Assembly: GCF_002571385.2 (NCBI RefSeq)
Contig: NW_019218625.1
Location: 1 to 64,000 of the forward strand
Direction of reading: 5' to 3'
Length of the DNA: 64,000 nt
Origin: Stylophora pistillata
Taxonomy: Eukaryota
Positions 10,787-54,216 of the stretch are shown in pieces; position 1 is the first letter of the stretch; each line of letters begins with the position of its first letter. Under the pieces are notes generated by a model. The model ran no database searches and was not told the DNA's origin. It saw nothing but the letters and a program-made list of their open reading frames with translations. The position numbers and the translations under genes are program-made.

Positions 10787-10949
10787 GTTCCCTTATTTAC
10801 AAATGTTTGGTTTTCTTATTTTTTATTTGGTCGTATTGTATCAAGATAGCTAATTTAACATATCTTCCTTTTTATACGTTCATGTACGAGGGGAATATAC
10901 GAGAGTCAATTGATATTTTTTTTTCAAAATGAATAAAGGGGGTAATTCT

Positions 10950-28465: not shown

Positions 28466-29204
28466 CCACCTGTCGGTGGAAAAATTGAAACATTCTCAAC
28501 CAGTTCTCACTCAGTCTTTACAAGTCCTAATTATTACACGACATAGTTATGTCTTTACATTTCCAACATCTACAAGAGTGTTTGGATGTAAGCCTGCTTT
28601 TCGAGGTAAGAACTAACATCATGAATAAACTTTATATTCTTGTCCTCTCTACCTCTTAAATAGTAAGTGTTTGAATTAACATTAAAAATCACTTCTTCGA
28701 AACCTAACAGCATTGCTTTTTGTATGATGTATGAGATCCTCTGGCACGAAATCTCTGCTCTAGAAACTACTGGTTCAGCTTTAATATACATACAGTGAAT
28801 TTTGTCTCAGTCGTTATCTCGAATCACGCGTACCACGTCTGCATCACTTTTAGGTTGCATCATACCAGGCTCCGCAGTCCTCTTCAGAGACGGACAGTTC
28901 TTTGAAAGGGCGTTTCGTTTCTATCGCGAGGGATCAACTGCGGGAAGTTGTTTATGGAGACAAATTTTTATATAAAAGCAAAGATGAAGTAATTCTTGAT
29001 GAGAATCCAAACTTGACCGAACTACCAGAAAAAACTGCGGTCGTTGGGGAAGATCCGAGAGGGATCTTAGAAGAGGGGAAAATAAAACGAGTGTGTAGTT
29101 CAATCTAGTGCACTATTGAAACCGACGGTACAGAATGGCAGAGCAAGTTAGAAAATGTTCGAGTCTTCAGAGGAAATGTGTGTGAGAAATATCTGTTTAC
29201 CTAA
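28466..29204 (+). pseudogene. Gene L3: orphan, frameshifted duplicate of the last two exons of L2
   Basis: 28466-28605 is 140 nt versus 148 nt in L2. 28854-29204 has a 2-nt deletion and a TAG at 29106-29108. Confidence 0.9.
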
Positions 29205-31448: not shown

Positions 31449-34400
31449 CTATGAGTTATCTTCCATAGTTTTCTTTATCCAATCAGTAAATGGATACATC
31501 CTAGTATAGTATCCATACTGATCCTTTTGTGCGCAGCCCACTCCCCAGCTGACCAGCCCAGTAGCCACCCAACGGAAGTCTTCTCCTCTTTCTGCCTCAC
31601 GTACGAAAGCTCCTCCACTGTCACCATGGCAAGTATCATTTCCTCCCTTCCCATCCCCGGCACAAAACATCACTGTAGAGTTGAAAAAGTATTTCCCTGA
31701 TTTGTTAGCGCAGAGTTCGTCGCTTTGAATTGTGAAGGCTGAGTACTGAAGACGGGCTGAGTAGCGTTTTTCTTCTTTGGGTATTTCTCCAAGTTTCAAG
31801 GCTTGCGTTACACCCCAACCTGTTGCTATGCCGAATTTTTTAGGGATTGCCAAATCGCCGTCATCCTTTTCTGGAATACACAGTGTCCGTACAAAGGGGC
31901 CAAGTTCCACTTCCTTGTCGAGTTTGACCAAAGCAATGTCACTTGCGAATTTTTTATCGATGTAATCTTGATGAACAAAAATCTTCTTCACCTCCACATC
32001 CATCTGAGATTTTTCAACCCTCACCAAGTGGTGGTCACCCGCTATCACTTGGTACCTGCGAGATGAAGAGTAGTTGTTTTAACGAAAATAGTTTGGCTAA
32101 ACGTTTGGTTCACCAACCAAGGAAAAGCTGGTTTTGGTCATTTTCCGAGAGGTATTCGCCATGTGAATGATATCAGAAATTCGAATGCCTTTTTACCACA
32201 GAATTTTCTCACCTTATAAATGTGAACTTTAAAATCCAATAAAAAATGATATCTAAAACCATAGATGTTAAAAGTTACTTTAGACTTCAAACGTAAAAAG
32301 GATTGATGGACTCGGTGCTTACTTATTGGACAAATCGTCGAAAACACTAGCCCCATGAAAATTTTTGTGGTAAAAACAATGTGCAGCCGTAAGAACCCAA
32401 CGACGAGAAATCAGAGCACCGCCGCAGATAAGCACAAGTTTCCCTGAAAAGGAGAAAGTAAACAGATATAAAAACAATAATTAGTAATTTTCGCTAATAA
32501 TTACTTATCAAAAAAAAAAAAAAGAAAACCGCCAAAAGAGAATTGAGCCCAAAAAACAATCACGCTTGTTGTGTGGGGTTTATATGCAGAACAATGGAGT
32601 CATTCTATTAGTGGGAACAAAGTAACGTTGATACCACGGAGATCAAGAGTTCCCAATTCCAAAGATAAATCTTGGTTCTAGAGTATTTTTGAGTAGTTTT
32701 CCGAAATGCCCATATGTAGATGTAGGCCGCAGACTGCCGTGTATGGGGTAGAATAATATGCCCAAATCATTCAAAGCAGCATATGGAAATATGATGGAAA
32801 TAAAATGTTATTCGCGCTTTTCTTGTATGTACAGCATTCAATGAATGGGCTAACCGAAGCAAATCTCCAAATCAAATTACCGTCTGAGTTGAGCCTGCGT
32901 AGTCCAATCTGCCAGGGCCACCAGCCTCTTTTCGAATTCTTGCCACCGACCATTCTCGCCCTCAGGTCAACCGGACTTACACCACAGGGTTTATAATCTG
33001 TGAACAAGAAACAAACATAAAGTCATAATCACTTCAAAGTAGACCGGTTTACTGCAATGCGCTTATATTCTTTCTTTTCTTGTCCTATCTTTTCTGTATT
33101 TTTAGATAATACTTTGTGGAATAAGATGGTCGATCTCAGCTTTCAATTAACACTTCACTCTTCTACACCCTTGAACCGAAACCATTTTGAATCAAGAGCC
33201 CCGATTCATAATTGACTGCAAAATACAGAGGAATCACAAGCGACGGAATTTAAGCTGATATTATCAATTTACGACATACCGATCTTGATGTAAGTCGCTC
33301 TCTTGATGGCTTTCTGAAGATGATTGTAGTCTCTGACATGGAGCACATGATTATCGGCTGCTTCAGGTGAGGCTATATCCATCAGTTCACGAGCGCGAAC
33401 TTTCTTTCCAACTCCTACAGGGTAAGATGTTGAGTGATAGTGGGCAAAACGAAAACTAGTGATAAAAACTAGTGATGAAAACTAATGGTAATAATAGCGG
33501 AAAAACCAAGTTAATACATCGGTGTCATTTAAAGATAGCGCTCCTCGCATTGCTAAGAGTTGAATTCCCCTTTAGCCCAACCTCAGAAATGAGGGCTGCT
33601 TACAAAAATGATAATCGGAACTGGAGGTAGAGACCGTAACACTGTGAAATTACGTCGACTATATATCTGAAGGTAAATAACCCTACAGAAATAATATATA
33701 GAAGTGTAAACTGTACTCTTCCAGGGTGCTTGGGTCCAATTATGGGGAACGAGCGCTTGTGTGAATGTCAGAAAAAAGAGTAAAATGTCTTCCCAAGAGC
33801 GTCCTTTAATAAGTTTCTTAAACTTAACTTTCTAGAAATCTTCAAGTGCCCCTGTTTCAAATTACTGCCAAGTTACTTTACCTATTGCGTAGATCTCAAA
33901 GTTTTCCTGTTCACGAAGATGCTTCGCTAACTTTTTAGGCGGACCCCCAATGTTAGACATTCCATCGGTGATGAACATCAACACACGGTGTCTGTCGGGA
34001 CGAGCTTGTGGCACAACGACATCTTTGACCTCTTGTAAAGCAAGTGCTGAGGCCGTAGCTCCCCCAATGTAGATTATATCATCAATGGCTTTGATTGCTT
34101 TATCCATGGTGTCGACCTTTGCGTCTCCTAAGTTAAATTCAACTTTCACGTCCGTCCCAAAAGTCACGGCTGCTACTCGTGTTCCATCAGCTCTACGAGG
34201 AGGTTACAAAAACTGAGGATAAATTTCTTGATGTTATAGCTAGTGATGATATTGCTCACAATGAGCATCTATTAAATAGTTAATTTGGTTAGGCAGGGGA
34301 TGTTAAAGAACCCACTCAAGAGAATACTGTGATGTGGTCTGGCCTGTTTGCTGGAATTAGGGGGGGGGAGGGGGGGTAGGGGGCATCTTCAAATATGTTT

Positions 34401-37400
34401 CCTTCGATTATTGTAAACTGCTGATGCAGTCCGGCCAAAGTCCCCCGAAAAGTGTTGGGATGCGCATTTGATCATATCCACATGTTAAATTGCGCAATAT
34501 AAATCTTAAATTATTATTATTATGATATGAGCACTCTTAGGATAGTTAGAACCGTCATAAGCTATTTTTAGCTAGTAACAATGACAAAACTTGACAACGG
34601 TTTCCTCGAATTTGCGGTCATTAAAATTTCAAGTAGTCTCACATTGTAGCATTTATTTCGCATCTTATTCTGTAGAAATTGTGGAAACTATCTCCTCTGG
34701 CTTCTCTCTCCATGAGGTCTTGTGCTCTCAACTTTCAAACTTACGACGTGGACATTTTCAATGCGGTTACACCAAGCAAAGGAGAATGGAGAAATGACCT
34801 GTCTCGTGCATTAATGGTCATTGAGAAGAAGAAACAAAGTTACGAGATTTATTCTTCTGATTTACCTATAAGGGGTACATTCCACAACCGTTCTTAAGAC
34901 GCGAGCCATTTGCTTGCGTTTTGGACGTTATAACACAAGAAATTAAGTTTGAAGTGGTTTGTAAACTACTCCATCCGTGTGTTCAGCTCCTTAATTAGCG
35001 ATATACTTATTCTTCAAATTATTAACAGGTTGAACAAGTAGAAAAGAACTCTGTCCCTAAAAATTAATCGTACCTTTTGCTGGCGCCAATGGTTCTAACC
35101 AGCTCTTTTGCAAATTCCAAACCAAACTTGAAATCAGTCAGCTTTCTCACACTGCTTGATGCATCGATGACGAACACAAGATCTAAGCCACCCCTTGAGT
35201 TCAAATTAATGGCTCTGCCTCTGAAATCCATGACACGAATACTTGTCCTGTTGCATCCAGTGCTGTTATCGCTGTTACACGTGTACTCTGATAAAGGATC
35301 AAGCAGATTTTTGCGAAGATTGTAGGCAGTGACGTTAACACCCTTAAACCGATCTTCGAATTCATCTGTAGAAACAAATTGATGGAAAGAACTCTGAGAA
35401 AACTGCAGTTCATCAGAGCTAACAGCACATGCTACTTAGAAATGATTTCGTTTGTCGTATACTAAGGCTGCAGGTAAAAGAATGCGACTTTTGTGCGACC
35501 TGCACTTATCATTACCCCGACAAATTGCGTCCGTGCCATTCCAAGCTCCGCTATCCAAGCATTTTCTTACTGCGGACCCCTTAAGAAGAAACCCGCGTTT
35601 ACATTCGAATGATACAATGTCTCCCTTGTTGTATCCGCTGCCGTATTTACGTCCGCTTATTGGAGTACCTAGAACGGGACAGTCGGTATCTGAAAGAGAA
35701 TTACAAAAAAAAAGTTTTTTTAGTCGAGGATTCACTTTTGATAAATCACTGACTGATTGACCGACGTACTGACTGACAGACTGACTGAACTGAGCGGAAA
35801 GTCAGTATCTGAAAGAAATATAAAGGGCAAAGGCTCTTCAGTTGACTGACTAACTAACCTACAGGCTGACTAATTGACTGATTGATTGACTGACTGACTG
35901 ACTGATGAAGTACGCAGTTACTGACTGACCAACTGGCTTACTGACTGACTAACTCACTTCCACCCACAGACTGACTCACAGACTGACTGACTAACTGAAT
36001 GGAATAGGATAGTCATTACTTACAAGAGATGTAAGGAGAAAGGCTCCTTCGTGGAAATTGCCCTTTTGCTTTACCCCATAAGGAACACTACTGATTGACT
36101 GGTTGACTGATTGGGTGAGTGACTGACTGACTGACTGACTCTTTCACTGGTTGACTGACTGACTGACCAATGGATGTCCCGGCCGGACCAATACTCATGG
36201 TCTTAAAATAAGTGGGGAGAATTTGCTACCTTTCTATGGTAGAAATGGATAGATATACTAGTCTTCTAGGATAAGGACGAATAAACCGTAGGCCCCGTCT
36301 CCTGCAGGGTTAGGGATAGGAGACGTTAATTTCCCACGCACGAGATTACTGGGGGGTGGATGTCCTCCCGTGGGTGGGATGGGTGAGTGTTGTCCCTGAA
36401 AAGCCCTTATGGGGAGTGGTCAGTTAACCTATGTATGTATGTATGTATGTATGTATGTATGTATGTATGTATGTATGTATGTACTGACTGAAGGACTGAC
36501 TGACTAAAAGACTGGCTGACTCAAGCATTGACTGACTCAAATACTGGCCACCTTATTATAACACTGACTGACTAACTAAATGACTAACTGACTGACTAAC
36601 TGACTTACTACTAAACTGACAATCTAATCAAAGAGATTTTTTATCTCACTCTGTCCTTACTTGAATTGTGCTGGGCTATTTATGCCTGATTGGCATAAAC
36701 AGCCAGCTTTATCTATATAAAGCCGGGATAATACGAGAAGTAAAAAAGAAATAAAGAGCGAATAACCATTGCCACTCTCTACTGCATTTCAGAGAAGCTT
36801 AAGAAAATTCTGACTTACTTCCATCTTGACATGTGGCCAAAGTTCCATTCCATTCCTTATTCTCCTGGCAAGTCCTTTCCCTTGAGCCAGACAATTGGAA
36901 ACCAGACTGGCAGGAAAACTGCACTGTACTACCAATTCTAAAATATCGATCTTGATAGTAACGATCACCATTCTCTGGTCTCCCAGGATCTGGACAAGAT
37001 TTTACTACAAAGCAGTATCGTTTATGGTTACGAAAATAATAACAATAATCATTTCTTTAAAACTTGATAACATCACGAAATGTTATCAGTGGGATATTCA
37101 TGTGGATATTTATTTTCCAAAGCCTGTTGTCGTATCTGATTGGAATTGAAAGACTTAGCATTTTTGGAATGATGAACAACTGTGCAAAGATCATCCTTGG
37201 TGATGATTGGTAGCTAGGTTTTTGAGGACATTGAACAACGCCAAACAGAGTACCGGTATACATGTAACTCTAGGGTTCAGTTTCTCAAAAGTCCCAATAA
37301 CTTAACGGGCGTTTCAAAATTTAAAGGATAGGAAAGCAGGTTCTGGCACCCAAAAAATTCCTTTTTGTTTCTTCGGCAGATAGTTTTATTGTATCATTTT

Positions 37401-40400
37401 CACAACTTTTGAGATCCCCATCTTGAATGAAAACAGAACAGCTTTATGGGCCGAATAAGTTAACAGGACTTTCAAGAAACGGGCCCCAAGATTGAAAGTC
37501 AACCCAGACCACAGCACTGAGGGTAAACCCTTGAACTGATAAGCCATTCCTGTCTCTTTCTCCCACATAATTAATTAAATCATTATTTTATTCCTTAAAA
37601 CATGCTTACTAGCGCAATATGGTGATCTTCTGGGGCTCCAACCAAATTTGAGGCAAGTCATCGTGTCACTGCCTCGTAGCTCATACCCTTCGTTACACTC
37701 AAATGCAAGGGTAGCTCCATACAGGTATTCAGGGTCAGAGGTGGTGACATTTCCATTTCGAATGACAAGTCTTCGTGGCTTTACACAACGGATTTCTGTA
37801 AACAAAAATGAAATACTATTTAGCGATGTGGAGAGATTTCCATAAATGTGTAACACTAATTCTAAAACAGTCCTTGTCCCAAAGCAAATAAACTGTTTCG
37901 CCATTATTTTTATAAAGAATTGTATGCATACTGAAGTACGGGGTTATATGGAGATCTTTCCAGTTACATTCCCATTCTACACAATTTGAAAGCAGGACCT
38001 CCATTAATAATTTTGCGGTTAAAACGATCTTTTGTGCTAGCGCATCTCTTTCAGTTTACTTACGTGTACAAGTCGGACCACTTGACCATTTCCCATTATG
38101 AAGACACGTTCTCCTTTCCGGTCCATGAAGTCGATAACCTTTTGAACAAGTGTATTTTAAAGTATCCTCGTAGTTATAACTTAAGCCGCTCACGTTAGCA
38201 TTAGGAATGTCCTCGGGTTTTCCACATGATCCTAACGGAGAGAACACAAATATATATTTTTAACCCCATAACAGGCGAAGAGGAAGAACCAAAGATGAAT
38301 GCCGGGTTACTCTGGAGCACACTTACGCCATCTCTCGCATTAACTGCGACAACACAAATGAATGGGCGTGAAAGAGGATTAACGTAGCGGCCATTTTGAA
38401 GCTATGTCCATCCATTATGGCCGCTCCTGATCGCTACAAACAACTAGCAAGAGAAGAGGAGCATTTGCTGACAAGGTGAAGTAATTGTCGCTAAATTGGA
38501 AATTTTAGTCCGATTGTAAGGTACTCTCCTTGCCTATTCAATTTTGGTATCTTTATATCGGTTATTCCAATCACAATTAGTTTTAAAATTGTGAGTGTTG
38601 ACTCTGTTGTCTTCCAACGCATATTTTCAGCCTGATATCTTCTAAGAGCTCTTATCTTTCAAGGACTAATCGGTGCGTGTGGCGTTTTATTGTCGTCTCT
38701 ATTGGAAAGATTCTTGTATAGCCCAAACAAGGGATTTGAACTCTACTAACTATGAATAAATACAGGAAAAGTTATGGATGTATATTCATTTCCTTTGTAT
38801 TTAATTTGCAATTATAGCCAATTCAGTATCGAAAGAAGCTTGTTAATGTTGTTGCATTTTCACTCAGACAATAACTTTAGGCGAACAAAATAAAAGCATT
38901 ATTGTCGATTTGGATTGGAGCAATTAGAGTGCTTTTCGATTGAGTGCTGTGAAATCCTAGTCAGGTTAGATGTCACCAGGAGCCAATGAGAACTCGAACT
39001 GAAGTAAAAACAAGCAAACTGCCTGAAGCGTGGGAAACGCAAGTGACCAAAATCGTTAATAGTTTTGGTTTTGAATCTCATTGGTTGAGAAAGTGGTAAG
39101 AGTTCTCCGGAATAATCAGCTGACGATAACAGCAAAACCAAAGCAACCCCGGATAACTTTCGCAACTAAAATTATTGTTGTTTGTGCACTTGTATTAAGA
39201 TTATCGGATTTAGTCATGAATTTAACTCACTTGGTGAACATTTAGGAGCCTGGGACCACTGTCCGTCTTTTCCGCATTTCCTTCTTTTTGGTCCTTCGAG
39301 TACATAGCCATGATCACATCTGTACTTTATTTTATGGTTGGCGCTGAAACGGGAACCAGAGAATGTGGCGTGTGGAATGTCATCGGGTTTGCCGCAATAT
39401 ACTGATAAAAAGAATGTGAGGAAATATATATGAGATTAAATATGCTAACAGTTTTTTACGTTTTAAATCATAAACTAAAACTTAATCATGGATTAGTGAA
39501 GTGCGTTCGATCTAGCTTTGGAATGGACATTTTTGAACCTTTGTAACAAAGTCCAATTTATGATTCAACTTATGAAGTTCAAATGTTGGCGTGGCTTACA
39601 GTTTTAATTTATAATTAGAGTTTTAATTACAGTTTTAATTTATAATTAATCGTACTCCTGATACTCTAAAATCCATGGTAGTTTATCAATTTTCTTGTGC
39701 GGGATGTAATTTCCGTTGTATTGACGAAACTAGTCGCCACCTCTCTACTNTTTGTCGGCTATTATTCTAAAATAGCGAACCTCAAACTCCGACAACTCAC
39801 TAAGCGCTTTTGTAAATCGGACCTAAATATCAAACTAGTTTTCACTTCTTTCAAAATTAAAAACATGTTCAGTGTTAAAGATCGTACTCCTGATGCTCTA
39901 AAATCCATGGTAGTTTATCAATTTTCTTGTGCGGGATGTAATTCCCGTTATATTGGCGAAACTAGTCGCCACTTCTCTACTAGGATAAAGGAGCACACGG
40001 AAAGCGATAAAAACTCGCATATTTTTAAGCATTTTAACACATCTCCTTCTTGTAAGAACAAATACTCCCTTTCTTGCTTTAGTATTCTGGATTCTGCCAA
40101 CAACTCAATTGATTTAAAACTCAAAGAAGCTTTTTATATAAATAAGATCAAACCTGAACTCAACAAACAATTACAGCATTATAACACTTTTCTAGCATTT
40201 TAGTTCACACCTTTAATTTCATGTTTGTTGTCACGCTGTAATTAGTACCCGCTTTTGTATTACATCATACTGTAAATATTTTATTCATCTACTTGTCTGT
40301 TATATAATTACTCACGTTCAGTTACTCATTGATTGAAGGTGGCATAAGCATGCCGAAACATGTCTCTAAAAAAAGTTGTTTATTTCTTACAATATATATT

Positions 40401-42616
40401 ATAATTAATCATTTAGTTGGATTAGTTCGATCAAATGGCTCTAATTTATCCAAACCGAAGCGAGTCAACCCGCGGGACTTCACCTGAACACTTGGGTGTT
40501 TTGCTTGCGATCCACTTTCCATTCTTGCAAGTTCTTATGTCAGTTCCTTTTCGGCAAACGTATCTTGCCTTACAATAACCAGTGTGTATAGCCACTCTGG
40601 ATTTTGGAGGCGGATTTTTTTGGGCTTCACGGAGAATATCAATGCATTTCTTGTCACATTCTAACACAAGAAGAAACAATGTAACTTGAAAGCAAGCATA
40701 TGCCCAGTAAGGTAACATCTTTTATGTAGACAGTTAGATATACTTGACTTGGATTTACTCGCGTAGGTGAGATATGTTATAGGTTTCACCGACCCTAAAT
40801 ATTCAATCTTATCTTTGGGATTTCAAGTTAATTAAACTCATCTTCTGCAAGTGTTCATGAACCGAAATTAGAACTCGCTTCTGTTTACAACCCAGGGTAA
40901 AATCTTACGAAAGGCCAAATAAAGTCTCCCGCCGGTTTGATGTCAGCTGATGCATAAATACGCCCGTTTCTCCTACATAAAATTTCTTTTTAAAAGGAAT
41001 GATTGCAGTTTTGTTAGTAAGCCTCTGTTCGCTATTAGTTTGACGTTAGGACCTACTTATATTAAGCTTTTTACTATAAAATAAAACTATACAGAGATTC
41101 CCAAAAGAGACTGGGACAATAGAAAACAACTTCATTAACTGATGGTTTGTTAACTCTGAATTCAAGGGGTAAACGCTTGAACTTCCGTAAAACTTACTAC
41201 TTTTTCGGCTCATTACATTTTGAGTGGCCAACACCAGTGCAGTCAAAAACACGTACCATAGAATCTAGGAAATAAGAGAAAAGTTCAGTTTCTTTCCAGT
41301 CAATATTTCTAAGCTAAACAAGTGCTTAAAACTCAAGTGCGCGGTAAATTTAGTCATTTTCTCCTCTTTTAGCAGATTAGTTGATATCCAGAGGATCCTC
41401 GCAAATTTGAGGCCAATTTTGTGGCTAGCTCTGTCGAAGGGCTAACGCTTCAAACGTCAGTTTTGGAAAACTTTTTAACGGCGGCCATTTACGTTATCAA
41501 CTCAGTTAATAATACCATAATTGTATTTATTTAATAGTTGTATTTATCGTGTTTGCGATATTTTTGGAACATATTCCTGATTGATTGAATGGTGTTCTAT
41601 GGGAACTCCTTTAATCAAAGATAACTTCATTTAATTTTGAATTGTATGCAGAATGAAAGTTATCCTTTTAACTTAAGTGGGTGTTTGTTTTGAATGATAA
41701 CTTCTCCTTAAAAGATCAGTGCATAATTCAGCGCACGAGTGATGAGAACTGATGAAAAGAGAATTAGCTCTACTCTTTCAGTGTGTTTCTTTGATTAAAG
41801 CCAAAATTCTTCAAACCAGCTTTTAGAGGAAGTGTATAGGAACTCTGTGGGAGAATCAATCTAAATTAACTCGACTATCTTGGTGATAATTATTACATTG
41901 TGAACAGCCTCCATGGTAAAGAATTTTATATGACTGACACCCTCGTATACCTTTCCAACGCCTTTATAGGGTACATACATTTAATAGACTCAAGCCTAAG
42001 CTTTTAAACATGCAGGTATAGGAGTATTTCAAGGAATAATTTTTGTCGCCTTTACTTTCCTTGCTGAAGGAAGAATCTTCCTTTTTAGCTTAGAGAAGGT
42101 TAAAGGTTAGCCAATGTTTTTCACAATACATAGAAACTCTTTGCTTTAACTAATAGCAAAATTTCTGATCGTATAATTAGATACTAAAACTTTTATTTTT
42201 GTCCAGTTTCGATTAAATTGGCATCATCGGAATATGATGAGAGTATTGACTTTTATTGATTAACACTGCTTGCTCTTTGCTGACGTTAAACGTCCCCCAT
42301 CATGAAGATGATTAGTCGGATTAGTAATAACGTTACGTCCTTTTGTTGTTCTGTGCAGTGGCACTAGTCGTTCCATATCACTGAATCTTAATTTATGATA
42401 GTATAATGATAGTTGCGAGGCTTCTTCGCATACTTTTTAATTATCAGGGCTTTTAGAGTAAAAATCTCCTTTAACCCGATGATCGAAACACCCCGTCAAG
42501 ATTAATTAATATTGGTTGATCCAGCACGTATATTTTTCCCTTTTAGTCCTTTCAGCTTTACTTGCGTTGCAGTGTAGAGTAAATTAACATCTTACCTGAT
42601 ATCGAAAAAATAGCAT
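31449..42616 (-). CDS. CFB: Complement factor B/C2-like protease (~910 aa): signal peptide, 6 CCP (the first divergent), vWA with MIDAS, trypsin domain with intact triad
   Basis: 14 exons: 42616-42596, 41264-41198, 40660-40484, 39401-39231, 38231-38064, 37795-37610, 37004-36819, 35689-35516, 35365-35074 (FRGRAINL...LDLVFVIDASSSV), 34192-33882 (GGAT...FITDG), 33414-33280, 32997-32881 (LRARMVGG), 32443-32323 (TAAHC), 32055-31449 (SDIAL, DTCHGDSGG). 2733 nt, open frame. The symbol denotes family, not proven orthology. Confidence 0.9.
35748..36620. repeat. Degenerate (GACT)n microsatellite field interrupted by a SINE
   Basis: Many GACT/ACTG tetramers; (TATG)n at ~36430-36482. Confidence 0.85.
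36178..36482 (+). mobile_element. 5'-truncated tRNA-derived SINE with a (TATG)n tail
   Basis: Body (cccggccggaccaa...ggtcttaaaataa...cccgtctcctgca...ggagacgttaattt) is shared with 50307-50530. Confidence 0.7.
39650..40385 (+). mobile_element. Penelope-like retroelement fragment (GIY-YIG) in a factor B-like intron
   Basis: VVYQFSCAGCNSRYIGETSRHFSTRIKEH...LKLKEAFYINKIKPELNKQ; degenerate hammerhead-like tgaaggtggcataagcatgccgaaac at ~40335-40359; 39650-39749 repeats 39882-39981. Confidence 0.85.
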
Positions 42617-43495
42617 CTTGCTCTGTTTGGAGATTTAACTCTAGATAATGCTCAGAGCTTAGTGCATTCGAAGATATCTCTTTTCTGTTTCCGCTATTCG
42701 CTAGCGTGTCGAGATTGTTAATTCTTTCAGGATATTTTTACCGTCTGAGCGCTGCCTAAACACAAATGAACGGTTGCCAAAGAAAACAGTGTGCGCGCTC
42801 ATTCAGAGCTTGCTGTCAATTTAAGCAGCTACAGTTTCAGCGGATGTTGAGGTCGTATATTGAGAAGTTTCAGGAAAAGGTCTGGGAAGTTATTTTCTTC
42901 CTGTGACAAAAAACATATTTTCTTCGCTTTATTGCGCCATCATTTCCGTCACTTTCGATGAAAACTGTTACATCTGCCATAGTTTCCTACTTGGTTAAGA
43001 CGGTAAACTCTTTATGATAAATGAAATAAAGAAACATTGGAAATATACACAGTTGAGTGTAAAATTTAATATGACGGTTGGCCGACTTAACTGGTCTGAT
43101 TGGTAACACCACATTGCTCAATTCTGATAAAAAGATAAACAGCAGGGGTTGGATGACCTCCAAATACACAGACCTTTTGATGAAATGAAAATGACAGCGC
43201 AGTTTCAGCTATAGTGATTTGGCTCACGTAGGGAAAATTCTGCACTAAAATAACACTTTGATGACAGATTTGTTCTCGTTTCCTGCCCTTGGTATCCTGA
43301 GAATAACAGCGCTCAAAATGAAGGAATCAAAAGATAACGTTACCGTTGACAGCTTGTCCGAATTAGTGTGCTGAAAGGAAAAATAATTTGGCACGTTCTT
43401 GCGTGTTTCTCATTTAATTCCTTTGCGTCTAAAACGCAGAAGCAATACCTTCAAAATACATTTCGTTTTCGTAAACACAGCGTACGGTGAAAACC
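42617..43495. promoter_or_regulatory. Probable bidirectional promoter/5'UTR region between head-to-head genes
   Basis: Only ~880 bp separate the divergent ATGs at 42616(-) and 43496(+). Confidence 0.55.
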
Positions 43496-46400
43496 ATGCG
43501 TTGCGTTGTAAGCTTTATTTTCGGTCTCTTTCTGCTCCAGCTGGCAAGAGGCGAAGAGAATAAATCAGGTAAGTCATTGTGTGCTGGGCGGTAAAACTGA
43601 TTATCTCTATTTCAAGTTTAATAAGTTTAGCAACGGGTATTTGTCATGCAACCATTGTAGATGAATAAAAGAGAAAAAAAAAGGGTGCAGAGACAAAAGA
43701 TGACGGCCATTGAGATTTCGGTTTGAAATTTTGATTACGTTGTGGTATTTACTTAATTCTATGTATCAGTGAACTAAGTGTTGAACGTAACCGGACCTGT
43801 TAAAAATGTTCCTGCGAGATAAGTTTACCTTCCTTTTTTTTCTACGAAAATCCTTGTGTTCGAGCAACTTAGATACCGTGTTGTGTGGGGTGCCGCAAAC
43901 TGAGGCAACCCTTTTAGTCGTGGGGTGAGGAAAAATATGCTTTCCCCAGGGGAGAGCTCTCCAATAACAAAATAGCCCAAGCAGTGGTATGTTAGATTTG
44001 TTCCAATTTCAGCGGGGTGCTTAGGGTAGCAAGGATAGCACAGGAAGTGAATCGGATCATGTAACGCAATAGCCGCTTGCTCGCTCGCTCCCGCGTTCGC
44101 GCGTGGTTATCGCGATCGTACATGACCAACGAGTAATTAGTTACACAGACACGCCGTTTGCGATTATAATATTGATTATTTAAATGTCCTGTCACCTTGA
44201 GCCGAGTCATTCTCTTGACAACAGCAATTATATTGTTTAATTGGTATTCGACGGTACAAATACTCTACTTACTCCTTATTTTGGGCTCAATAAAGAATTG
44301 CACAGCTCAAGATGATGATCTTTTTTTTTTTTTTTGATTATAGTCAAGAAATGCCTTGCCCTAGAAGCTCCGGAAAATGCTGAAGCAATTGGCAATAACA
44401 CAGTTGGTTCTGTTGTCAAATTCTTGTGGAAAAAGGGCTTTTTTCGACTTGGAAGTCCTCACAGAATCAGGTGTAAGTCAAATGGACAATGGACTAAGCC
44501 TAATGTGTCTTGTGTTGGTGAGTACTGATAAAATGTTACTTTCATATATCATGGCTACGACTGTCCTTATGACTTTTTTGTAGCGTGTGTACAATACCAT
44601 CAATCCGTGAATCTTTCCCTTTCTTGTAGTTGCTTGTTTTCTTTTCGTGGTTTCTGTTCGGTAAAGTTGTTTTATTTTGCTGATTTTGTCGCATTATTTC
44701 CCCTAAATGATATACAGTCGTTACCCATGTTTCACTTAGTAATGTTGACGATCCTTTTTTTTGCTCACATTTTGTTTATTTTAATTTAGTCATCGGATCG
44801 TTTTCCTTTTCAGCTGTAAGTTGTGGAGACCCTGGCTCTCCCTTGAATGGAAAACGCATGGGTTGGATATTTCAGTACAATCACAGTGTCACTTTCGATT
44901 GCCATCGCGGTTTTAAACTGGAGGGACCTAAAACAAGAACCTGCCTTGAGAACCAAACCTGGAGTGCCAGCCAGCCAGTTTGCAAACGTAAGATTAGAAC
45001 ATGAAGCAAGATTTTCCCATGTGTTTTAAAAATATAGCTTACAGTTAAAACAAATGATCATGCTCCCGTAGCAATGAAGTCTCTTGCGTAACGAACAGAA
45101 TAAACGATTCCACCCATGATGGTAAAATGGATGATGCAACAAAGAGAGAACCGAGTCCCATTATGTCCTCATAATGAAACAAAACCCAACTTAAATAAAC
45201 GAACCCCCGTTACGCCGAATTAGTTTCCCGCCCTTTAGCACTTCTTCATACGTACCTGGGTGTGCTTATTTTCGGGTTATTGTGGAATCCCCACAAAACG
45301 AATCCCTGACCATAGAGCGTAACCATCTAACCCGATAAAATGAATCCTTTTTTTCGTCCTCGACAACATAGTAGAAGTAAAATAAATGGAATAGTATTGC
45401 GTGAAAACGATCCAACGTTATGACAGAGACCTTTTTTGATCGAAATATTTTAGCTGTTCCATGTGAGGAGCCTCCAAAAGTGGTTGATGCGGTGATGTTA
45501 AGCGGTGGTTTCGTGTTTGGTGCACCCGTGTATTACACTTGTAGTGAAGGGTATAAATTGCAAGGACCAGACACGTTGGCATGTGGAGAAGATGGAAAAT
45601 GGGTCGGTGAGACTCCGGTTTGTAAAGGTGAGTTTCTTGGTTGACTTTCGTTTCATACTTTTATTTTCACTCTACGTAGACGAAGCACGAAGTAAAATGA
45701 AATGGCCAGCTGCTTTCAAAATATTCCGCTCACAAAAAAAATTAACTTTGACAACAATAATCAAACATCAAAAGTGAGACATATTTGTGTCGAACAATAA
45801 ATTCTCGACTTACCGTAACTCAGCGCATGAAATAACCAACCCCAACAAACAACAGCAACAAATGCCCACAGGGAGTGGCGGTGTAGCCGAATGGTTAGGG
45901 CACTAGACTCGTTGTTCCGGGCTCAAGCACTACACCCTGCTACTTACTGGATTTGTTCTCATTTGCCCCAAGTGCAACTACCTGGCTGCACCTTGTAGAG
46001 AACCAACTGGTCTCTCCTCTGCCATTTAGGAGTTTTCAACACTGGGTTTATTTGCAATGTTTGTTTCCATATTTTTTTCTTGGGAAGAGAAGAGTGATTA
46101 GGTAGCAGTCGATTAAGGCCATTGCTTATTATTATTAATTTTGTCGCTATCATTATTGCCATTACTATCATTATCATTAGTAAGTGTTATTACAATGAGA
46201 TTTACCTCCTTTTGCATTCCCCTTTTAGCCATAACGTGTGCTGATCCGGGTACACCCCAACACGGTTCAAGAAATACAACCGGCCCTCCATTCAGTCATA
46301 TGTCGTTAATCTTCTACGAATGCAGTAATGGATACATTTTGTATGGAACTGACAGGCGCTCTTGTAATGGTGACGGGGAGTGGACTGGGGTACAACCGTT

Positions 46401-49400
46401 TTGTGTTGGTAAATAAGTAAAGAGCTCTGCGCCTTCGATTAATGTTAAAGTGCACCTAAACCCAAAAAATTTTTTTCGCTTAACGAAATAAGCGTATTTT
46501 TTGGAGTATTTCTGTACAAAAAATATTTTATTTGCCCAGATCTTCAATTTTCTGTGCCCAGTCAACATGATACGAAAAAATCGGCCGCCATCTTGCTCCA
46601 CGACCGAGTTTAGAGAGGAATGGCTCTAGCGGGTAATGTGTCGTCAAATCGAGAACGCGAAAGTCTGCATTTCACACATTTTCACTTGTATGGGAAGGTT
46701 GTAGTCGATATTTTCCGAAAATATGCCGACTAAGTGTGTTGCAGGAGGATGTAGCAAAGTGCGAAATTTGGAAGAGGGTATCGCGCTTCATACATTCCTC
46801 ATACAACACACCTAGTCGGCATATTTCGGACAATATCGACGACAACCTTCCCAAACAAGTGAAAATGTGTGAAATGCAGACTTTCATGATCTCGATTTGA
46901 CGTCACATTACCCGCTAGAACCATTCTTCTTTAAACTCGGTCGTGAGCCAAGATGGCGGCCGATTTTCCGTATTTTGACTGGGCACACAAAATTAAAGAT
47001 TTGAGCAAATAAAAACATTTTTGCAAATAAATGCTCCAAAAAATAAGTTTATTTCGCTAAGCGAAAAAAAAATTTGGGGTTTCGGTGCACTTAAATGATA
47101 ACTGGATGAAACAACATTTTTTTCGCTTTTTTTATACCTAATGGTGACAATCAGTTTCTTCCCCTACAATCATTGCGCTGTTTTAGTGCTTCTTTCGCTT
47201 TCCCTTCCTCACCGCTAACGACTATTCTCCATTTTATCCTGTTTTCACTCCTCTTCAATCCACTGTCCTTCAATCTTCTTTCCATTTTCTCTCACTTACT
47301 TTTTTCAAGCTGCCTCTCTCTTAACTTCTCAGCTTCAACTTATTAAAGCTGATTGTCATCAGCACGTTGTTGAGAGGAAAAGGCGAATTTAAATACTCGA
47401 GTGTGTTATTTTTCATTCATATATTTTTTATTCTATAGAATGCGCAGGTGTTAACACGCCGGTTTTCGTCAGGAATGGGCAACGTTTCATCCACGGAATA
47501 ATTCAGCAAAAAAGCAAAAATATCGTGACGGTTCTGACTGACTCACCTAAAGAAGAAAGAGATGTTGTGATATTTGGACCTGGAACACAGCATTACATCA
47601 TAGTGGAGGACAAACTCCCATCCTCGAAGAACGTCTTCTTGGGATCGCGTGTGATTGCAATGCAAAGAGGATCGTACATCTTTGCTAAGGTTGACGCGAT
47701 CAATGGTGACAAGTATTCGGTAACATTTGAGGACAGACAGCGAACTAAGCGGACAGTGGCATTAGAGCATATCCGCAACTTGTTTCCTCCAACATTCTGT
47801 GGTACGTAAGTCATGGTGCCTTTAATTAAGCTAAGAAGTGTACTGAAGGGTTGAGGAAATCTTTAGTAGCTACCTTAAACAAAATCTGTCTGGATCATAC
47901 GGTCAATCTGCTCAGCTCAACCTTCCCTACTATCTTATGGAAATGGCCACTACTTTCTTGTGTATCCTAACGGTAAAAAGCCTTACATAGCCTCACCCAA
48001 ATAAGGACATGCTCCTTCTGGTTTGACCGCATCTTAAGAAGAAACTTTCCTATGGCTGTTACGTACCCCTATCAAACAGCACACCGCCTTGATATATTGA
48101 CGTGAGCCACAAATGGAGCCTTTAAGACTTTGGATTAGCCCAACTAACAGTCGCCGTTCTATAAATAGAGCCAAGCTTCTTGGAAATTAACTTTTGGAAG
48201 CACGATTATCAAAGTCTAGGTTTAAATCTATAGATTTTAGAAATCTTGGAAAAAAATAAAAATTTGCACCCAATCTAAGACAGTTTTCTGACATTACACT
48301 GTTAATTTAAACCAATTAAGCAACATGTCCAGACCCTGGAAAACCAGACAAAGGCTTTCGAACAGACAACTTAGAGGAGTTCATAGTAAGGACCGAAGTA
48401 GAATTTGGTTGTGAAATAAATACCCAGCTGCTTGGATCAAGTAAGAGAACATGTCAACCAAATGGAAGATGGTCTGGAGAACAACCGACCTGCGAAAGTA
48501 AGTGTAAAATGATATTTATCAAAATGCATATTATTGAGAGAAAGAAACGAAAACCGCCCTGCAGGTGTCAGTGTTAAGTAAGAGGGATTCGCGTGAGGAA
48601 AAAAAATTCAAAGTACAGACAAACTTTCACCAAAAACTCGACGTCTTAGCGTCATTATGACACAGCTATATCGAGAATGAGGATTAGTCAAAGACAGAGC
48701 TGTGAAGACTTAATAGAGTTGGTAGTTAATAAGAGTCGGAAATATTTTATCTTGATTAATAAATGATCATCGCCTTTCCACCGCCTCGATTCGCCTCTGC
48801 TATTAGCTGTTAATTTGAGAGTCTTTTGTATTTATTTATTTAGTTATTTACTGGCTATGGTTTCTGTGAGCATCTAAAGATCAGACCTTATGAACGTAAG
48901 GTACCGAACAAAGACCCTGGCACAAATGGAGTCAGTTTGCACGCTTAGACACGGGCCTAACCTGTAACGATGCCTTTTTATTTCAGTTAGTCTGAATTTA
49001 AACGTGCATATCAAGATGTAATTTTTAGATGCATGAATAAAAAAAAAAAAAATGTTGCATCTATTTGCCAATAGTTACTTCTTGCTGGGATCTCGATGTC
49101 TTTCCTCCCAAAAACGGCAAACGAATTGGTGATGACTTTTCTATTGGAAGCACCGTAGCCTTTTCCTGTGATGAGGGATATGAGCTTGACGGAGAATCGA
49201 AGCTGACATGTCGTCCGGATGGTCAGTGGTCTGACAGAACGCCTTTGTGTAAAGGTATGACAAAGCAGAACCCCTTCTTTGCTTCAGCCCGTGTTAAAAA
49301 TCAATAACTTTTTTTTACTTTCAATTTCCAACCAGATTCTCAATGGATCGATGTCCGCCAGTTCTTTTACTATCAGCTATTTGAATTTTCTATTCTTTCT

Positions 49401-52400
49401 TTTTGTTTGTTTGTTTGTTTGAGGAGGGAGGAGGGGTAGCCATCGCAATTCTCGGTGATCACTGCAACGTCAACGGGTGACCTCTATATGCTTTTCACGA
49501 CTATGTCCATTATCAACCCCCCCCCTCCCCCCCGCCTTCTTGCATTATTTGGGAATTTGATTAAGGGGGCACGCGTTTGCCTTGGTGTCTAACAAGCTTC
49601 TTTTTCTCTTCCCCCGCCACTTTGACACTTACCTTAAAATGTTCCTGTTTTAATCATTGTTATAGAATATATGTGCAATTTGCCACAAGATTGTGTGTGA
49701 ACGATTACCTAGATATGGAAATTGCAAATTTTACAGATCGCTGCGAGGGCGTGGTTTGTAAACTTGAAGAGAAGTGTGTTTATAACAGCCTCCAAGGGCC
49801 CAGATGCGTCTGCCGTAATAACGTGGACTGTCCTGCCGATTTACAACCCATATGTGGTTCTGATGCGAAAACCTATAACAATTACTGCATTATGAAGGCG
49901 ACTGCTTGTCGAGAAGGCAAGGAGGTGGAGAAGGTCGCAGATAACTCATGTTCTCCTGGTATGTCTTCTTTCGTCTTGCTTCTTCTTTTTTTTTTTTTGA
50001 GGTTTCTTAATGCGTAGGCGACTATCATTCCCTAAAGCTGATGCTGGCTGAATAAAAAAACCCATAACTAATGCGCTTTTCTTTCTTAAGTTGTTTGTTT
50101 GTTTGTTTGTTTGTTTAAAGAAAAAAACATGTAACCTATGCACTAAGGTACTTGTACGTTACATGATCCTTTAGAATGGTTGTGGCAAAAAACAGTGATA
50201 ATAGATAACGGGGCAATCATCATGTTAATTTGGAATGTTGTGGGTAGTTTATTTCTGAAACTCCAGTCATTGTAACAGGTCAAAAACTAATGACAGATTA
50301 TTAACCGCCTCCCGGTTAGCATAATGGATAGAGCGCTGGACTGTTGTGCGGGAGGTCGAGGGTTCGAGCCCCGGCCGGACCAACACTCAGGGTCTTAAAA
50401 TAATTTAGAAGAATTTGCTGCCTTTCTATAACATCAAGAAATGGTTAGATATTCTAGTTTTCTCGGATAGGGACGAATAAATGGAGGTCCCGTCTCCTGC
50501 AAGGTTGGAGTAGGAGACGTTAATTTACAGGGCCATGTATTAGAAAACTGGTTACTGGGTTAATCATGTATTTACCCTCTTAAAATAAAGAACATTGTAT
50601 TGTATTGTATTGTATTGTATTGTATTGTATTAATCTGACGTGTTAACTCTACTTCTAAAATCAGGAGGAATTTGTCAGATAAACCCTGCAAGCAAATGCA
50701 GGGCTTACTTCAGAAATTTCTATTTCAACGTGACAAGCAATGTGTGTGAGCCAATCATTGCAGGTGGTTGTCACCCAAGTGGATGGAATGGTTTCCCTAC
50801 CATGGAAGACTGCAACCGTACTTGTTCTGGTAGGTGGAGTCTACAACATAACTAATTAAAGATTTTCGATCTTTGGGTTCAGGGACCGTTATTATTTATG
50901 GCCGGGAGGGGAAAGTGGGGCTGCTGGAGGATATTGGTTGTGTAACGATAAAATTTACTCGATCCACCTAAGGTTCTGTAACTTCCTTATGATCATCTCC
51001 CCCACCTCTTTCTTTGGAGTTAATTGGCAGTCGACTTTCTATAGTCCACCCATTACGCTCTGTTGACGACGACTGATCCCCGGCCCCTCCGTCCCTCCTG
51101 TAAACCATGTGATCCCCAAAATCTTCCACCAACCCCTCCCTCTCCCCACAGGGGATAAAGAATGCCTGGTCCTTAATTGCTTTTTGAGTTGTCATTGTTC
51201 GACTCGAGAAAAGAGCACTAAAAAATTGCTGAATGGTTTTTCAGTACAATTGTACTGCAAATGAATCGCTCTAAGTTACTATTTGATTTATTCAATGCTT
51301 TCAGTGGACGTATGTAGCCAGCCTACTGAACCAGGTCCGTGTACTAACACCACACATCGGTGGGCATTTAGCCCCAAAGCTGGTCGTTGTAAACGATTCA
51401 ACTATGGAGGCTGTTTTGGCAACGAAAATAACTTTGACAGCAAGGACAAATGCAATAAACGTTGTCCTCCTGTAAATACTGGTAAGGTGTTCCTCCCATT
51501 TGGTATTTTTGTCCCTCGTGATATTTGGACTGCTTCTCTCTTTTCCTTAGTGTGGTTTGTCGAAGTCAAGCAATGTAGTAGAATTTCCTGAGCCGAGCAC
51601 GAGCGAAATAGAAGGCCGTGATAGGCTGCGTAGTAATTAATCTTCTGCGCAAACGGGAAAAGCATGGTGGTGAGAAGAGTGTATTGAACAGGAGTCACGC
51701 GTACTTGTGATTTCAAATCGAACTCGAGCTGTGCGCTCGTTCAATTTTGAAATCATGTGTATGATTTCAGACCAAATTGCACTCCGCTCAGCGCAACCTA
51801 ACTATCATTGAGGTAAAACAGGCACTTGAGAAACCTTGCAGTATTTATTTTTTATTTTTTTTTTAATTACTGAGCATGATGAAATAATGCTGGTTTTTCT
51901 TAGATCGAGGGAACAAAGCCTGTCCAAGATGCGTTCAAAAGAGACTTCGTGAGGCATGCAAATCCAGTAGTATTGGTGAGTTGGCTTGTTGTCGACGAAC
52001 GCTTTCCATAGAATTAAATATTGATAAAAGTAAACTAAAAATTATAGCAATGATGATGATAATAATAAAACGAAAACCCCTTTGTCTCTGTATTTGGTCG
52101 CTGTAAAGGTCCCAAGCAGCCAGTTTCATTTTCACAAAAGCTCGCCGAAACCCTTTACGGTGGAGCTCCTTAACCCATAACAGCAAAACATGTTAAACAG
52201 AATCCCGGTCGCTAGACTGATAAAGTGCTCTCACTCATGATCATTTATTTTTTCTGTCTGGGCTGCGCTGCGAAACGTGCATTGGTCAACACCATCGAAC
52301 AAACTTACCTAGTTACCACTCTCTTAAATATTGATGTTTGTAGCAAGGTGTTTGGTAGGAATAAGATGACTGGAAGGATTAAGTTCGCTAAATTTCGGTG

Positions 52401-52904
52401 AGGAACCCATGTATAGTACGTTTATTACCCAGAGATTGCGACCACAACAAGAATAGATACTGATGGTCTTAGGGTCGACCATGTGCTGAAATTTTGCCTC
52501 GCGTGTTGTTTCCTTTCTCTTGTGTCTAAACTTTTTCTAAACAATTGTCTTTATTCGCAGCATTTGTAGGCAAAGTCGATAAGAAGTTGCCACATGATTC
52601 AGTCAAGAAACAAGCTCGTTATCAGGTCGTGATAAAGAACGTTCTCAGGAATACAGAGGGCTTTCCTACATTGGGAAGTGTTGTCGTCAATGTCCCTTAC
52701 AGTAGGTCACCAGACTGCCCCTGCCCTTCGCTACCCCAAGAAACGTTCTTTCTGATGGGAAATGTCGTGGTTGAACCAAAAGGCAACAATGCAAAAGTTG
52801 GCATAACAGTCACAAAGCCTGCAGTTGTGCAAAAATGGAGCCAAGAGATCCTTCAGAAAATGAATAAAAAATGCAAAGATTTGGATTATCGTGAACTACT
52901 CTAA
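43496..52904 (+). CDS. Gene W: secreted mosaic protein (~824 aa), signal peptide, 4 CCP, tandem-Tudor-like module, 2 CCP, follistatin/Kazal, 2 Kunitz, NTR (WFIKKN-like C-terminal half)
   Basis: 13 exons, all introns phase 1: 43496-43568, 44344-44517, 44814-44987, 45454-45627, 46229-46408, 47439-47801, 48321-48497, 49075-49254, 49737-49958 (10-Cys follistatin, PICGSDAKTYNNYC), 50665-50829 (Kunitz), 51305-51481 (Kunitz, FNYGGCFGNENNF), 51904-51975, 52561-52904 (NTR, CPRC...AC...AFVGKV...CPCP...W). 2475 nt, open frame. Confidence 0.88.
45872..46115 (+). mobile_element. Degenerate tRNA-derived SINE
   Basis: Head ggcggtgtagccgaatggttagggcactagactc is A-box-like and followed by a non-tRNA body. 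Confidence 0.5.
46449..47091. mobile_element. Kolobok-type fold-back MITE carrying the start of a THAP domain
   Basis: Preceded by TTAA; ~290-bp inverted arms (agtgcacctaaaccc... / ...ggggtttcggtgcact). The centre from 46723 reads MPTKCVAGGCSKVRNLEEGIALHTF. Confidence 0.75.
50307..50530 (+). mobile_element. tRNA-derived SINE followed by (ATTGT)n
   Basis: A box tagcataatgg and B box ggttcgagccc, then the same body as 36178-36330. Confidence 0.75.
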
Positions 52905-54216
52905 TCTTCCAAAGTTTTATGGACAAACCACCCTTTTTTAATGTCAATGAAATTGAAAACAAAGTAATTATAAGGAGGATTAGATATTGTGACAGCGACG
53001 GCGTGCTCAAAGAACACTTCCTAAATTAAAAACGTCATAGCTTGGCTTTAAACTCAGAGCATGTGTTTTATTCGGCGTGCGTTTGCTTTGCATTTGCTTA
53101 CTTGTGATAATTTTTTAAAAATAACGTTCGTCGCTTTTTTTTTTTTTGACTTGAGGAACTATGTGAACTGCGTTTTAGTTTAGTAGAGGCCAATATTTTA
53201 TTTTTAAAATAACTCGCTTTGAACCAAAAAGTCTCAAACTATATCAAGGGGGTTTTAGGTGTGTGGTTAATAAAATTTGCATTTTCAAAGAGAGTCTCTG
53301 TTGATTCTACGTGTAGTATTTTTTCCCATGTAAGATCAACCTAATAAACTAGACGTAATGATGGGCACTATCTTTTTTTCTTTTTTTTCTTTTCTTTTCT
53401 TTTATTTTTTTAACGCAGGCCTTGTGCTTGCCTTGTCGCGCCTAAAAACCACCGAGTGAATATGACGCAGTAGACTTTATCGGACATAATAAAGGAAGGT
53501 CTTGGGATGGGTCTCCGCCGCTGGAGAGGATCATTTCTTATTCAAACAAAGCTGCTACTCCAAGGTTTTTCTTTTCTTTCGCTGGGATCCATCTATTCGA
53601 AATTTGTTCCGTATGCTTTCTGTTTTGATTTTCTCTGGCTGTATGACAAGCCTCAATTGGTAACTTTTCATGGAGAGGCTTAGCAGGCAGGTCTTGTTGA
53701 TGTGGAACATGAAAAGCCTCAGCAAAAAACTTGCTTGCCGCTTTTTAGACAGCTTATTAGATAGGTCGCGTTGATGGAAAACAAGAAAAGCCACTTACCT
53801 GAAAGCTTACTTCCCGCAACAGTTCATTTCTATCGTGTGACTAACATGTGACCGAAGCGCGTGACCCTCAATGCGATTGGGACTTAGTCTTCATAAGCTC
53901 AAATACAAGGCGTGGACACTATCCCTGTTAGATTTTTATCATGTGACAGTCATGACGGTGTGATTCAGCGTTAATTTAAAGTCTGCCCACAAAATGTAGT
54001 TCTCAAACGTAACATCGAACGACGGAATAGTTTTGCGGAAGAAAAGCCCTTGCAACAGAAAGGAAAGCTGCAGCTTTCATAAAATTTTATGGCAAATATC
54101 AACTTTATATCACACATACAGTGAACTGTAACTTCACAAGAAAGATGTCGTGACGGTATTTTCCAGTCTTTCTCCAGGTTGTTTTTGCTTGTTTTTTTGG
54201 TCATTCATTTCACACT

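What the first reader, a model, noticed from the sequence alone, without database searches (positions are those of the whole stretch)
42596..43568. Protease and candidate inhibitor genes are head-to-head, 880 bp apart
Seen: divergent signal-peptide exons with ATGs at 42616(-) and 43496(+). Inference: a shared bidirectional promoter co-regulates an Arg-specific protease (S1 Asp in DTCHGDSGG) and a protein whose first Kunitz domain has P1 Arg (SKC-R-AY).
Basis: partly seen in the sequence, partly recalled or inferred. Interest (0 to 1): 0.7.

Follow-up and report, generated by a model that had tools for sequence, protein, structure and literature searches.

The report
Coral complement protease faces candidate inhibitor
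In a stony coral, the gene for the immune protease complement factor B is transcribed back-to-back with a gene for a secreted multidomain protein that likely restrains it, a pairing apparently kept from corals to a sea anemone and a possible early brake on complement.

Summary
Stranded RNA shows two spliced genes transcribed apart, with 5' ends at most ~400 bp apart. Unlike human factor B, it keeps Asp189 and a trypsin-type activation site. The partner is an apparently undescribed 824-aa secreted protein: 4 CCP, tandem-Tudor fold, 2 CCP, follistatin/Kazal, 2 Kunitz, NTR. Kunitz-1 has P1 Arg in 18 of 18 aligned relatives, while Kunitz-2 P1 varies. Orientation there is untested. Co-regulation and inhibition are not shown. 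Head-to-head pairs are common, the genome has at least 27 trypsin-like and 49 Kunitz matches, and no promoter motif beats chance. One correction: the minus exon at 42616 has only 7 codons, and the signal core lies in exon 2. Verdict: real, conserved and testable; inhibition of this factor B is about 0.4 likely.

The parts
42596..42770 (-). Factor B exon 1: 5' UTR plus the first 7 codons (ATG 42616); upper end approximate
   Evidence: Stranded reads to bin 42759-42809 and splice to 41264
42772..43166 (.). Untranscribed gap of about 395 bp between the two 5' ends; candidate bidirectional promoter; single copy in the genome search; no TATA; GAS-like, CCAAT, ISRE and NF-kB patterns not above shuffles
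43167..43568 (+). Partner exon 1: about 330-nt 5' UTR with 5 out-of-frame uATGs, ATG 43496, signal peptide
41198..41264 (-). Factor B exon 2, hydrophobic core of the signal peptide
   Evidence: loose-end joint, hydropathy
35516..40660 (-). Factor B: one degenerate CCP-like exon (40660-40484) and 5 CCP exons (39401-39231, 38231-38064, 37795-37610, 37004-36819, 35689-35516)
   Evidence: model; Pfam 5 Sushi; identical to P0252
33280..35365 (-). Factor B linker with R434|A435 (factor-D-type site, by position before the vWA) and vWA domain with MIDAS DASSS; 3 exons
   Evidence: joints
31449..32997 (-). Factor B serine protease: RAR644|MVGG, TAAHC, Asp189 codon 31637-31635, Ser195, Gly226; stop 31449; 3 exons
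44344..46408 (+). Partner CCP1-4 (44344-44517, 44814-44987, 45454-45627, 46229-46408)
   Evidence: RNA joints; Pfam
47439..47801 (+). Partner Cys-bracketed 120-aa domain with predicted tandem-Tudor fold
   Evidence: pLDDT 88; SETDB1 Z 12.2, rmsd 2.5, 106 aligned; BAHCC1 Z 11.2; Foldseek
48321..49254 (+). Partner CCP5-6
49737..49958 (+). Partner follistatin/Kazal domain
50665..50829 (+). Kunitz-1; P1 Arg codon 50700-50702; non-standard AGGCHPSGWNGF loop
51305..51481 (+). Kunitz-2, P1 Thr here and variable among relatives
51904..52904 (+). NTR/C345C domain (51904-51975, 52561-52904), stop 52904

Best explanation
A coral complement factor B gene and a gene for a secreted CCP-Tudor-follistatin-Kunitz-Kunitz-NTR protein are transcribed in opposite directions from a gap of about 400 bp that likely acts as one promoter, and the partner likely works as a co-made brake whose Kunitz-1 Arg would plug the protease's Asp189 pocket. 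Shown: divergent spliced transcription, both domain architectures, the S1 and P1 residues and their conservation. Inferred from accession order: linkage in other hexacorals. Inferred and untested: shared control; cleavage of the coral factor B at R434 and R644 to give a conventional trypsin-like enzyme that, unlike human Bb, a canonical inhibitor could block; tethering of the inhibitor near C3b or factor B by its CCP or NTR domains.
For: Opposite-strand spliced reads with a gap of about 400 bp. Both exon-1s are present at similar depth in 3 of 4 raw runs: spliced loose ends 5 vs 5 in X21 and 30 vs 56 in X24; X23 covers both thinly; neither in X22. Among 8 other species with named records of both genes, 7 have them on a contig of the same length and 6 within three accession numbers: Acropora digitifera XP_015777233-4/235-6 (241 kb), Actinia tenebrosa XP_031574706/707/708-9 (74.5 kb), Porites lutea XP_073244363-4/365-7, P. 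harrisoni (two contigs), P. lobata, Oculina G003832/G003834; Pocillopora verrucosa shares the chromosome only. Sharing a 75-kb scaffold by chance is about 2e-4, assuming a 400-Mb genome. Kunitz-1 P1 Arg in 18 of 18 rows (several near-duplicates) and in a jellyfish relative, P1' Ala/Gly, while Kunitz-2 P1 and the Kazal loop vary. In 10 of 10 anthozoan factor B rows the R-[AG]-R|[IMV][VA]GG site and the DxSxS MIDAS are kept, and 9 of 10 keep His57, Asp189 and Gly226. Human factor B has Asn189 with the charge at 226 (PMC7914634, passages) and an unformed oxyanion hole in Bb structures (PMC12847986, passages). CCP strings and C345C domains are the modules that handle convertases in mammals (PMC6683126; PMC12847986).
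Against: Head-to-head pairs are common and a shared promoter can preserve linkage without any protein link (established knowledge). No tested motif in the gap exceeds shuffles. Targets are many: at least 27 trypsin-like matches, a near-identical protease at 2824-3426 (84%) and a second factor B between two C3-like genes on C122; the genome also has at least 49 Kunitz matches. Kunitz-1 is non-standard (Ala at BPTI's Tyr35 position, one-residue insertion, shorter first loop) and its model is unreliable (pLDDT under 50). [quoted passage not shown] P. evermanni has the two genes on different contigs. The partner-linked factor B proteins do not form one exclusive clade in a protease-only tree. The amphioxus relative lacks the P1 Arg. 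The two A. digitifera partner ids are not among the 2 A. digitifera entries with the RCA motif pattern (PMC6683126 supplement 4; ids).
Confidence: 0.4

Rival explanations
1. The partner works like WFIKKN/GASP: its follistatin and NTR domains would bind a TGF-beta-family factor or matrix, Kunitz-1 would guard against some other trypsin-like protease, and linkage to factor B persists only because the promoter is shared.
For: The C-terminal order follistatin-Kunitz-Kunitz-NTR matches WFIKKN without its WAP and Ig (PMC3427181). In WFIKKN1 the follistatin domain binds myostatin and NTR binds its propeptide (PMC3906830, passages). The follistatin domain matches agrin and follistatin structures. A colinear amphioxus protein exists (32% over 422 aa).
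Against: No WAP or Ig domain in the coral protein. In GASP the proven inhibitory domain is Kunitz-2, here the conserved loop is Kunitz-1. It does not explain six CCPs beside a complement gene.
Confidence: 0.25
2. The partner regulates the same cascade one step away: Kunitz-1 would inhibit the Arg-specific protease that activates factor B (MASP or a factor-B-like paralogue), not factor B itself.
For: Both activation sites end in R-x-R in 10 of 10 rows, so an Arg-specific activator is needed. No factor D is characterised in cnidarians and MASP was proposed as activator (PMC4840205, passages). Paralogous CCP-proteases lie in the same window and elsewhere.
Against: Linkage is with factor B, not with MASP; no data here tie the partner to MASP.
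Confidence: 0.2
3. The two genes are neighbours by history only: a CCP-rich cluster grown by local duplication and exon shuffling, with two independent promoters back to back.
For: The window holds duplicated protease ends and four Tudor-like exons, and related Tudor-like modules end nearby CCP-protease models in Oculina and Actinia. Nearly all partner exons end in phase 1, which suits shuffling. No shared motif was found.
Against: A gap of only about 400 bp, linkage kept between corals and an anemone, and similar read depth for both genes.
Confidence: 0.15

Closest known systems
Cnidarian complement factor B/C2, Bf-2/Bf-3 type (Nematostella BAH22728; Exaiptasia Bf-2b; PMC4840205)
   Same: CCP(n)-vWA-trypsin order, MIDAS, Arg site before the vWA; 48% identity to the Nematostella protein; PDB hits spanning CCP to protease are human C2 and factor B.
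   Different: From human factor B: 5 CCP plus a degenerate one, Asp189/Gly226 instead of Asn189/Asp226, and a trypsin-type R|MVGG site. These traits are shared by anthozoan factor B. Assignment to Bf-2 or Bf-3 was not resolved.
WFIKKN1/2 (GASP)
   Same: Secreted; follistatin/Kazal, two Kunitz and NTR in this order at the C-terminus.
   Different: No WAP, no Ig; six CCP and a tandem-Tudor fold instead; conserved reactive loop is in Kunitz-1. A 2012 survey reported no such cassette in Nematostella (PMC3427181, passages).
Regulators of complement activation (factor H, CR1, C4BP, DAF)
   Same: Run of four N-terminal CCP domains in a secreted protein; CR1, CR2 and factor H are the top PDB hits, as for any CCP-rich protein.
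   Different: RCA proteins are CCP-only and act by decay or cofactor activity; they carry no Kunitz, follistatin, NTR or Tudor domain (own knowledge) and the RCA motif pattern was not tested directly.
Head-to-head gene pairs with bidirectional promoters
   Same: Divergent transcription with 5' ends under 1 kb apart.
   Different: Both products are secreted and may be enzyme and inhibitor; true start sites and shared elements are not mapped.

Membership tests
Complement factor B/C2 | CCP(n)-vWA-serine protease architecture with signal peptide | tested here: met
Complement factor B/C2 | MIDAS DxSxS in the vWA | tested here: met
   DASSS, 10 of 10 rows DxSxS
Complement factor B/C2 | Scissile Arg between CCP segment and vWA | tested here: met
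   FRGR|AINL, R-x-R in 10 of 10 rows; cleavage itself not tested
Complement factor B/C2 | Intact catalytic triad | tested here: met
   TAAHC, DIAL, GDSGG
Vertebrate factor B/C2 subtype | S1 charge moved from 189 to 226 | tested here: not met
   Asp189/Gly226 against PMC7914634
Complement factor B/C2 | Mg-dependent C3 convertase activity with C3b | not testable with these tools
   needs biochemistry
Head-to-head (bidirectional) pair | Divergent transcripts with starts under 1 kb apart | tested here: met
   read and contig ends bound the gap from above
Head-to-head (bidirectional) pair | One promoter drives both, with correlated expression | tested here: inconclusive
   bulk co-presence in 3 of 4 raw runs; no motif excess
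Canonical Kunitz trypsin inhibitor (Kunitz-1) | Six Cys, basic P1 after Cys2, small P1' | tested here: met
Canonical Kunitz trypsin inhibitor (Kunitz-1) | Rigid canonical loop supported by the Y/F-GGC second loop | tested here: inconclusive
   A-GGC with an insertion; model pLDDT under 50
Canonical Kunitz trypsin inhibitor (Kunitz-1) | Measured inhibition | not testable with these tools
   needs assay
WFIKKN/GASP | WAP and Ig domains | tested here: not met
   Pfam scan of P0267 and P0182
WFIKKN/GASP | Follistatin, Kunitz, Kunitz, NTR order | tested here: met
WFIKKN/GASP | Binds GDF8/11-type ligands | not testable with these tools
   needs assay
RCA proteins | Three or more consecutive CCPs | tested here: met
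   CCP1-4
RCA proteins | M5-M3-M1-M2 motif pattern | tested here: inconclusive
   motif matrices not run; A. digitifera partner ids absent from the paper's list, Stylophora partner id unknown
Tandem Tudor domains | Two SH3-like barrels in tandem | tested here: met
   (predicted model)
Tandem Tudor domains | Aromatic cage that reads methyl-Lys/Arg | not tested
   model coordinates not inspected

The most novel reading that the evidence does not exclude
Corals and anemones have a dedicated complement regulator of a type unknown in vertebrates: one secreted chain that docks on C3b or factor B through CCP and NTR domains and shuts a trypsin-like factor B with a Kunitz loop, made from the same promoter as the enzyme. 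It would show how the ancestral alternative pathway was stopped before convertase decay, push the follistatin-Kunitz-Kunitz-NTR cassette back to cnidarians, and put a tandem-Tudor fold to work outside the cell.
Probability: 0.3. Interest if true: 0.8.

Novelty: new variant of a known kind. Interest (0 to 1): 0.52.

Why it matters
Cnidarians have C3, factor B and MASP, but no factor D is characterised and Bf-2-type function is unclear, with expression tied to symbiosis in Aiptasia (PMC4840205, passages). A conserved gene neighbour with an invariant Arg reactive loop gives a named candidate regulator and a one-assay test of how early complement is held in check, which bears on how corals tolerate symbionts. 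The partner's architecture also bears on the origin of WFIKKN and suggests an extracellular use of the Tudor fold.

Tried and rejected
The full-length partner model is poor over follistatin-Kunitz (pLDDT under 50) and was not used for loop geometry. Orientation in other species: a metagenome scan gave 6 loci of 56 candidate stretches, 1.1-4.8 kb long; the longest begins at the end of partner exon 1 and none reaches factor B. Promoter motifs (patterns recalled, not from a call) in 42775-43166: GAS-like 2 strand hits from one palindrome (shuffle p 0.13), CCAAT 2 (p 0.21), TATA, ISRE and NF-kB 0; CpG o/e about 1 against 0.79 for the window, a weak sign only. The representative search with P0001 was crowded by CCP repeats. 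ESM Atlas gave no usable hit. The NTR exon has no PDB sequence match. Earlier findings of this scan: none in 3 look-ups. Main text of the S. pistillata cell atlas has no mention of Kunitz, factor B or sushi (PMC8162421, term search); its supplementary expression tables were not seen and may settle co-expression. PMC2480602 is not held. Rejected: assembly artefact (RNA joints, single-copy gap); calling the partner a WFIKKN member (no WAP or Ig); calling 42616 a full signal-peptide exon; using runs with small word shares as evidence.
Full report
Setting. The window is bases 1-64000 of contig C837 (102,598 bp) of a 398-Mb genome. The minus-strand protein is identical to P0252, which the source names Stylophora pistillata complement factor B-like, XP_022808245.1, on a 102,598-bp scaffold.

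Observation. Raw stranded reads cover the minus first exon from 42596 to about 42770 and the plus first exon from about 43185 to 43568, on opposite strands; no read of 4 runs lies in 42810-43166. Two contigs start the plus exon at 43167 and 43198. The gap between transcribed ends is therefore at most about 400 bp, which meets the usual under-1-kb definition of a head-to-head pair (PMC7817982, abstract in listing). Read ends are not true start sites. Both genes occur at similar depth in X21, X23 and X24; X22 has neither and is no test. This is co-presence in whole-colony RNA, not co-regulation. The gap is single-copy in the genome search and has no motif above shuffles.

Minus gene. Fourteen exons give 910 aa: a signal peptide split over exons 1 and 2, a degenerate CCP, five CCP, vWA and trypsin domain. 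PDB hits that span CCP to protease are human C2 and factor B. Ten anthozoan factor B rows all keep R-x-R before the vWA, the MIDAS and a trypsin-type R|[IMV][VA]GG site; nine keep His57, Asp189 and Gly226, the exception being a probably dead Actinia paralogue. Human factor B has Asn189 with the charge at 226 (PMC7914634, passages), and its Bb structures lack a formed oxyanion hole (PMC12847986, passages). I infer that coral factor B can become an ordinary trypsin-like enzyme, a kind that canonical Kunitz domains inhibit.

Plus gene. Thirteen exons, all 12 introns seen in RNA, give 824 aa: signal peptide, 4 CCP, a 120-aa Cys-bracketed domain, 2 CCP, follistatin/Kazal, 2 Kunitz, NTR. The 120-aa domain models at pLDDT 88 and matches tandem Tudor domains (SETDB1 Z 12.2, rmsd 2.5 over 106 residues; BAHCC1 Z 11.2). 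The NTR exon has one match in the genome. Relatives occur in Pocillopora, Oculina, Desmophyllum, Porites, Acropora, Montipora and Actinia, named only by automatic labels. A jellyfish model and an amphioxus protein share the CCP-follistatin-Kunitz-Kunitz-NTR order without the Tudor domain. Kunitz-1 has C-R-[AG] in 18 of 18 rows and an invariant GGCHPSGW stretch; Kunitz-2 P1 takes T, S, N, E, D, F, L or I. An unchanging P1 suggests a fixed, self-made Arg/Lys-specific target (inference). Against this, the loop is non-standard, the model there is unreliable and the amphioxus relative has no P1 Arg.

Linkage. I used contig length and accession order as a proxy. Eight other species had named records for both genes: seven share a contig length, six lie within three accession or locus numbers, P. 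verrucosa shares only the chromosome, and P. evermanni has them on different small contigs. Species with only one of the two records shown (Montipora, A. muricata, A. palmata, A. cervicornis, Desmophyllum, A. millepora, Nematostella, Exaiptasia) were left out. The Oculina record is a fused model whose C-terminal protease groups with the window's factor B (98/93). The proxy gives neither strand nor distance, and the coral species are not independent; the coral-anemone comparison carries the weight. A DNA test failed because the six loci found were too short.

Mechanism. Best reading (0.4): one promoter makes factor B and its brake; after activation Kunitz-1 plugs the Asp189 pocket, with CCP or NTR domains as tethers. 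Rivals: WFIKKN-like growth-factor binder with another protease target (0.25; PMC3427181 and PMC3906830, passages); inhibitor of the upstream activator (0.2; PMC4840205, passages); neighbours by history only (0.15). Base rates temper the claim: head-to-head pairs are common (PMC4773876, passages), and the genome has at least 27 trypsin-like and 49 Kunitz matches, including a second factor B between two C3-like genes on C122. Binding is untested.

What is known. Cnidarian factor B is described (PMC4840205; PMC11312191, passages; horseshoe-crab activation in PMC3351276, passages). I found no paper on the partner or the pairing in searches on WFIKKN/Kunitz/NTR/cnidarian, complement regulators, linkage, six accession numbers (one paper, factor B accession only), bidirectional promoters, extracellular Tudor (0 papers) and convertase terms. 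The library lacks most subscription journals. PMC3516229 and PMC6071037 (passages) mention WFIKKN but not this protein. In PMC6683126 (passages; supplement 4 part 5) 17 cnidarian proteins carry the RCA motif pattern; the A. digitifera partner ids are not among them, and the Stylophora partner id is unknown. The supplements of PMC8162421 were not seen.

Verdict. Observation confirmed, interpretation partly supported. A known enzyme, a common gene arrangement and a new domain architecture with a conserved reactive loop: new variant of a known kind, interest 0.52.

Noticed in passing
G000:C122:120255-198701 (L011-L018): Two C3-like genes flank a second factor B gene (165.8-154.4 kb), all on the minus strand. 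In Oculina a C3-protease fused model and the factor B/partner pair carry the same chromosome length, hinting at a complement gene cluster.
   Followed up: partly
window 123-3426 (+): 3' end of a CCP-protease gene whose protease exons are 83-89% identical to factor B and group with it (96/96); CCP exons join the protease without a vWA in view.
   Followed up: partly
window 25048-26924 (-): Broken copy of the factor B 3' end, 85% identical in DNA, with in-frame stops.
   Followed up: partly
window 7675-8085, 14170-14574, 23035-23427, 28844-29186 (+); 10490-10792, 19055-19366; 21021-21248: Four related exons resembling the C-terminal module of an Oculina CCP-protease (only indirectly linked to the partner's Tudor-like domain), two F5/8C exons and a CCP exon in duplicated units; gene models not built.
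   Followed up: partly
window 44429: The window has Trp where CCP1 needs Cys; 29 of 47 reads in X24 and both contigs read the Cys codon, so a Cys/Trp polymorphism seems to segregate.
   Followed up: partly
P0179, P0063, P0181, P0207 (Acropora, Montipora): Isoforms or orthologues lack CCP4 or CCP6 as whole exons, so CCP number varies while Kunitz-1 does not.
   Followed up: no
window 39682-40200 and about 27825-28259: ORF fragments that look like retroelement GIY-YIG tails (label recalled, not tested) inside introns or spacers; reads pile up on both strands at 39.7-40.4 kb.
   Followed up: no
window 59274-60213 and 53974-54456: Exons of another gene downstream of the partner (reads like an SMCR8/folliculin-type protein; recalled, not tested).
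   Followed up: no
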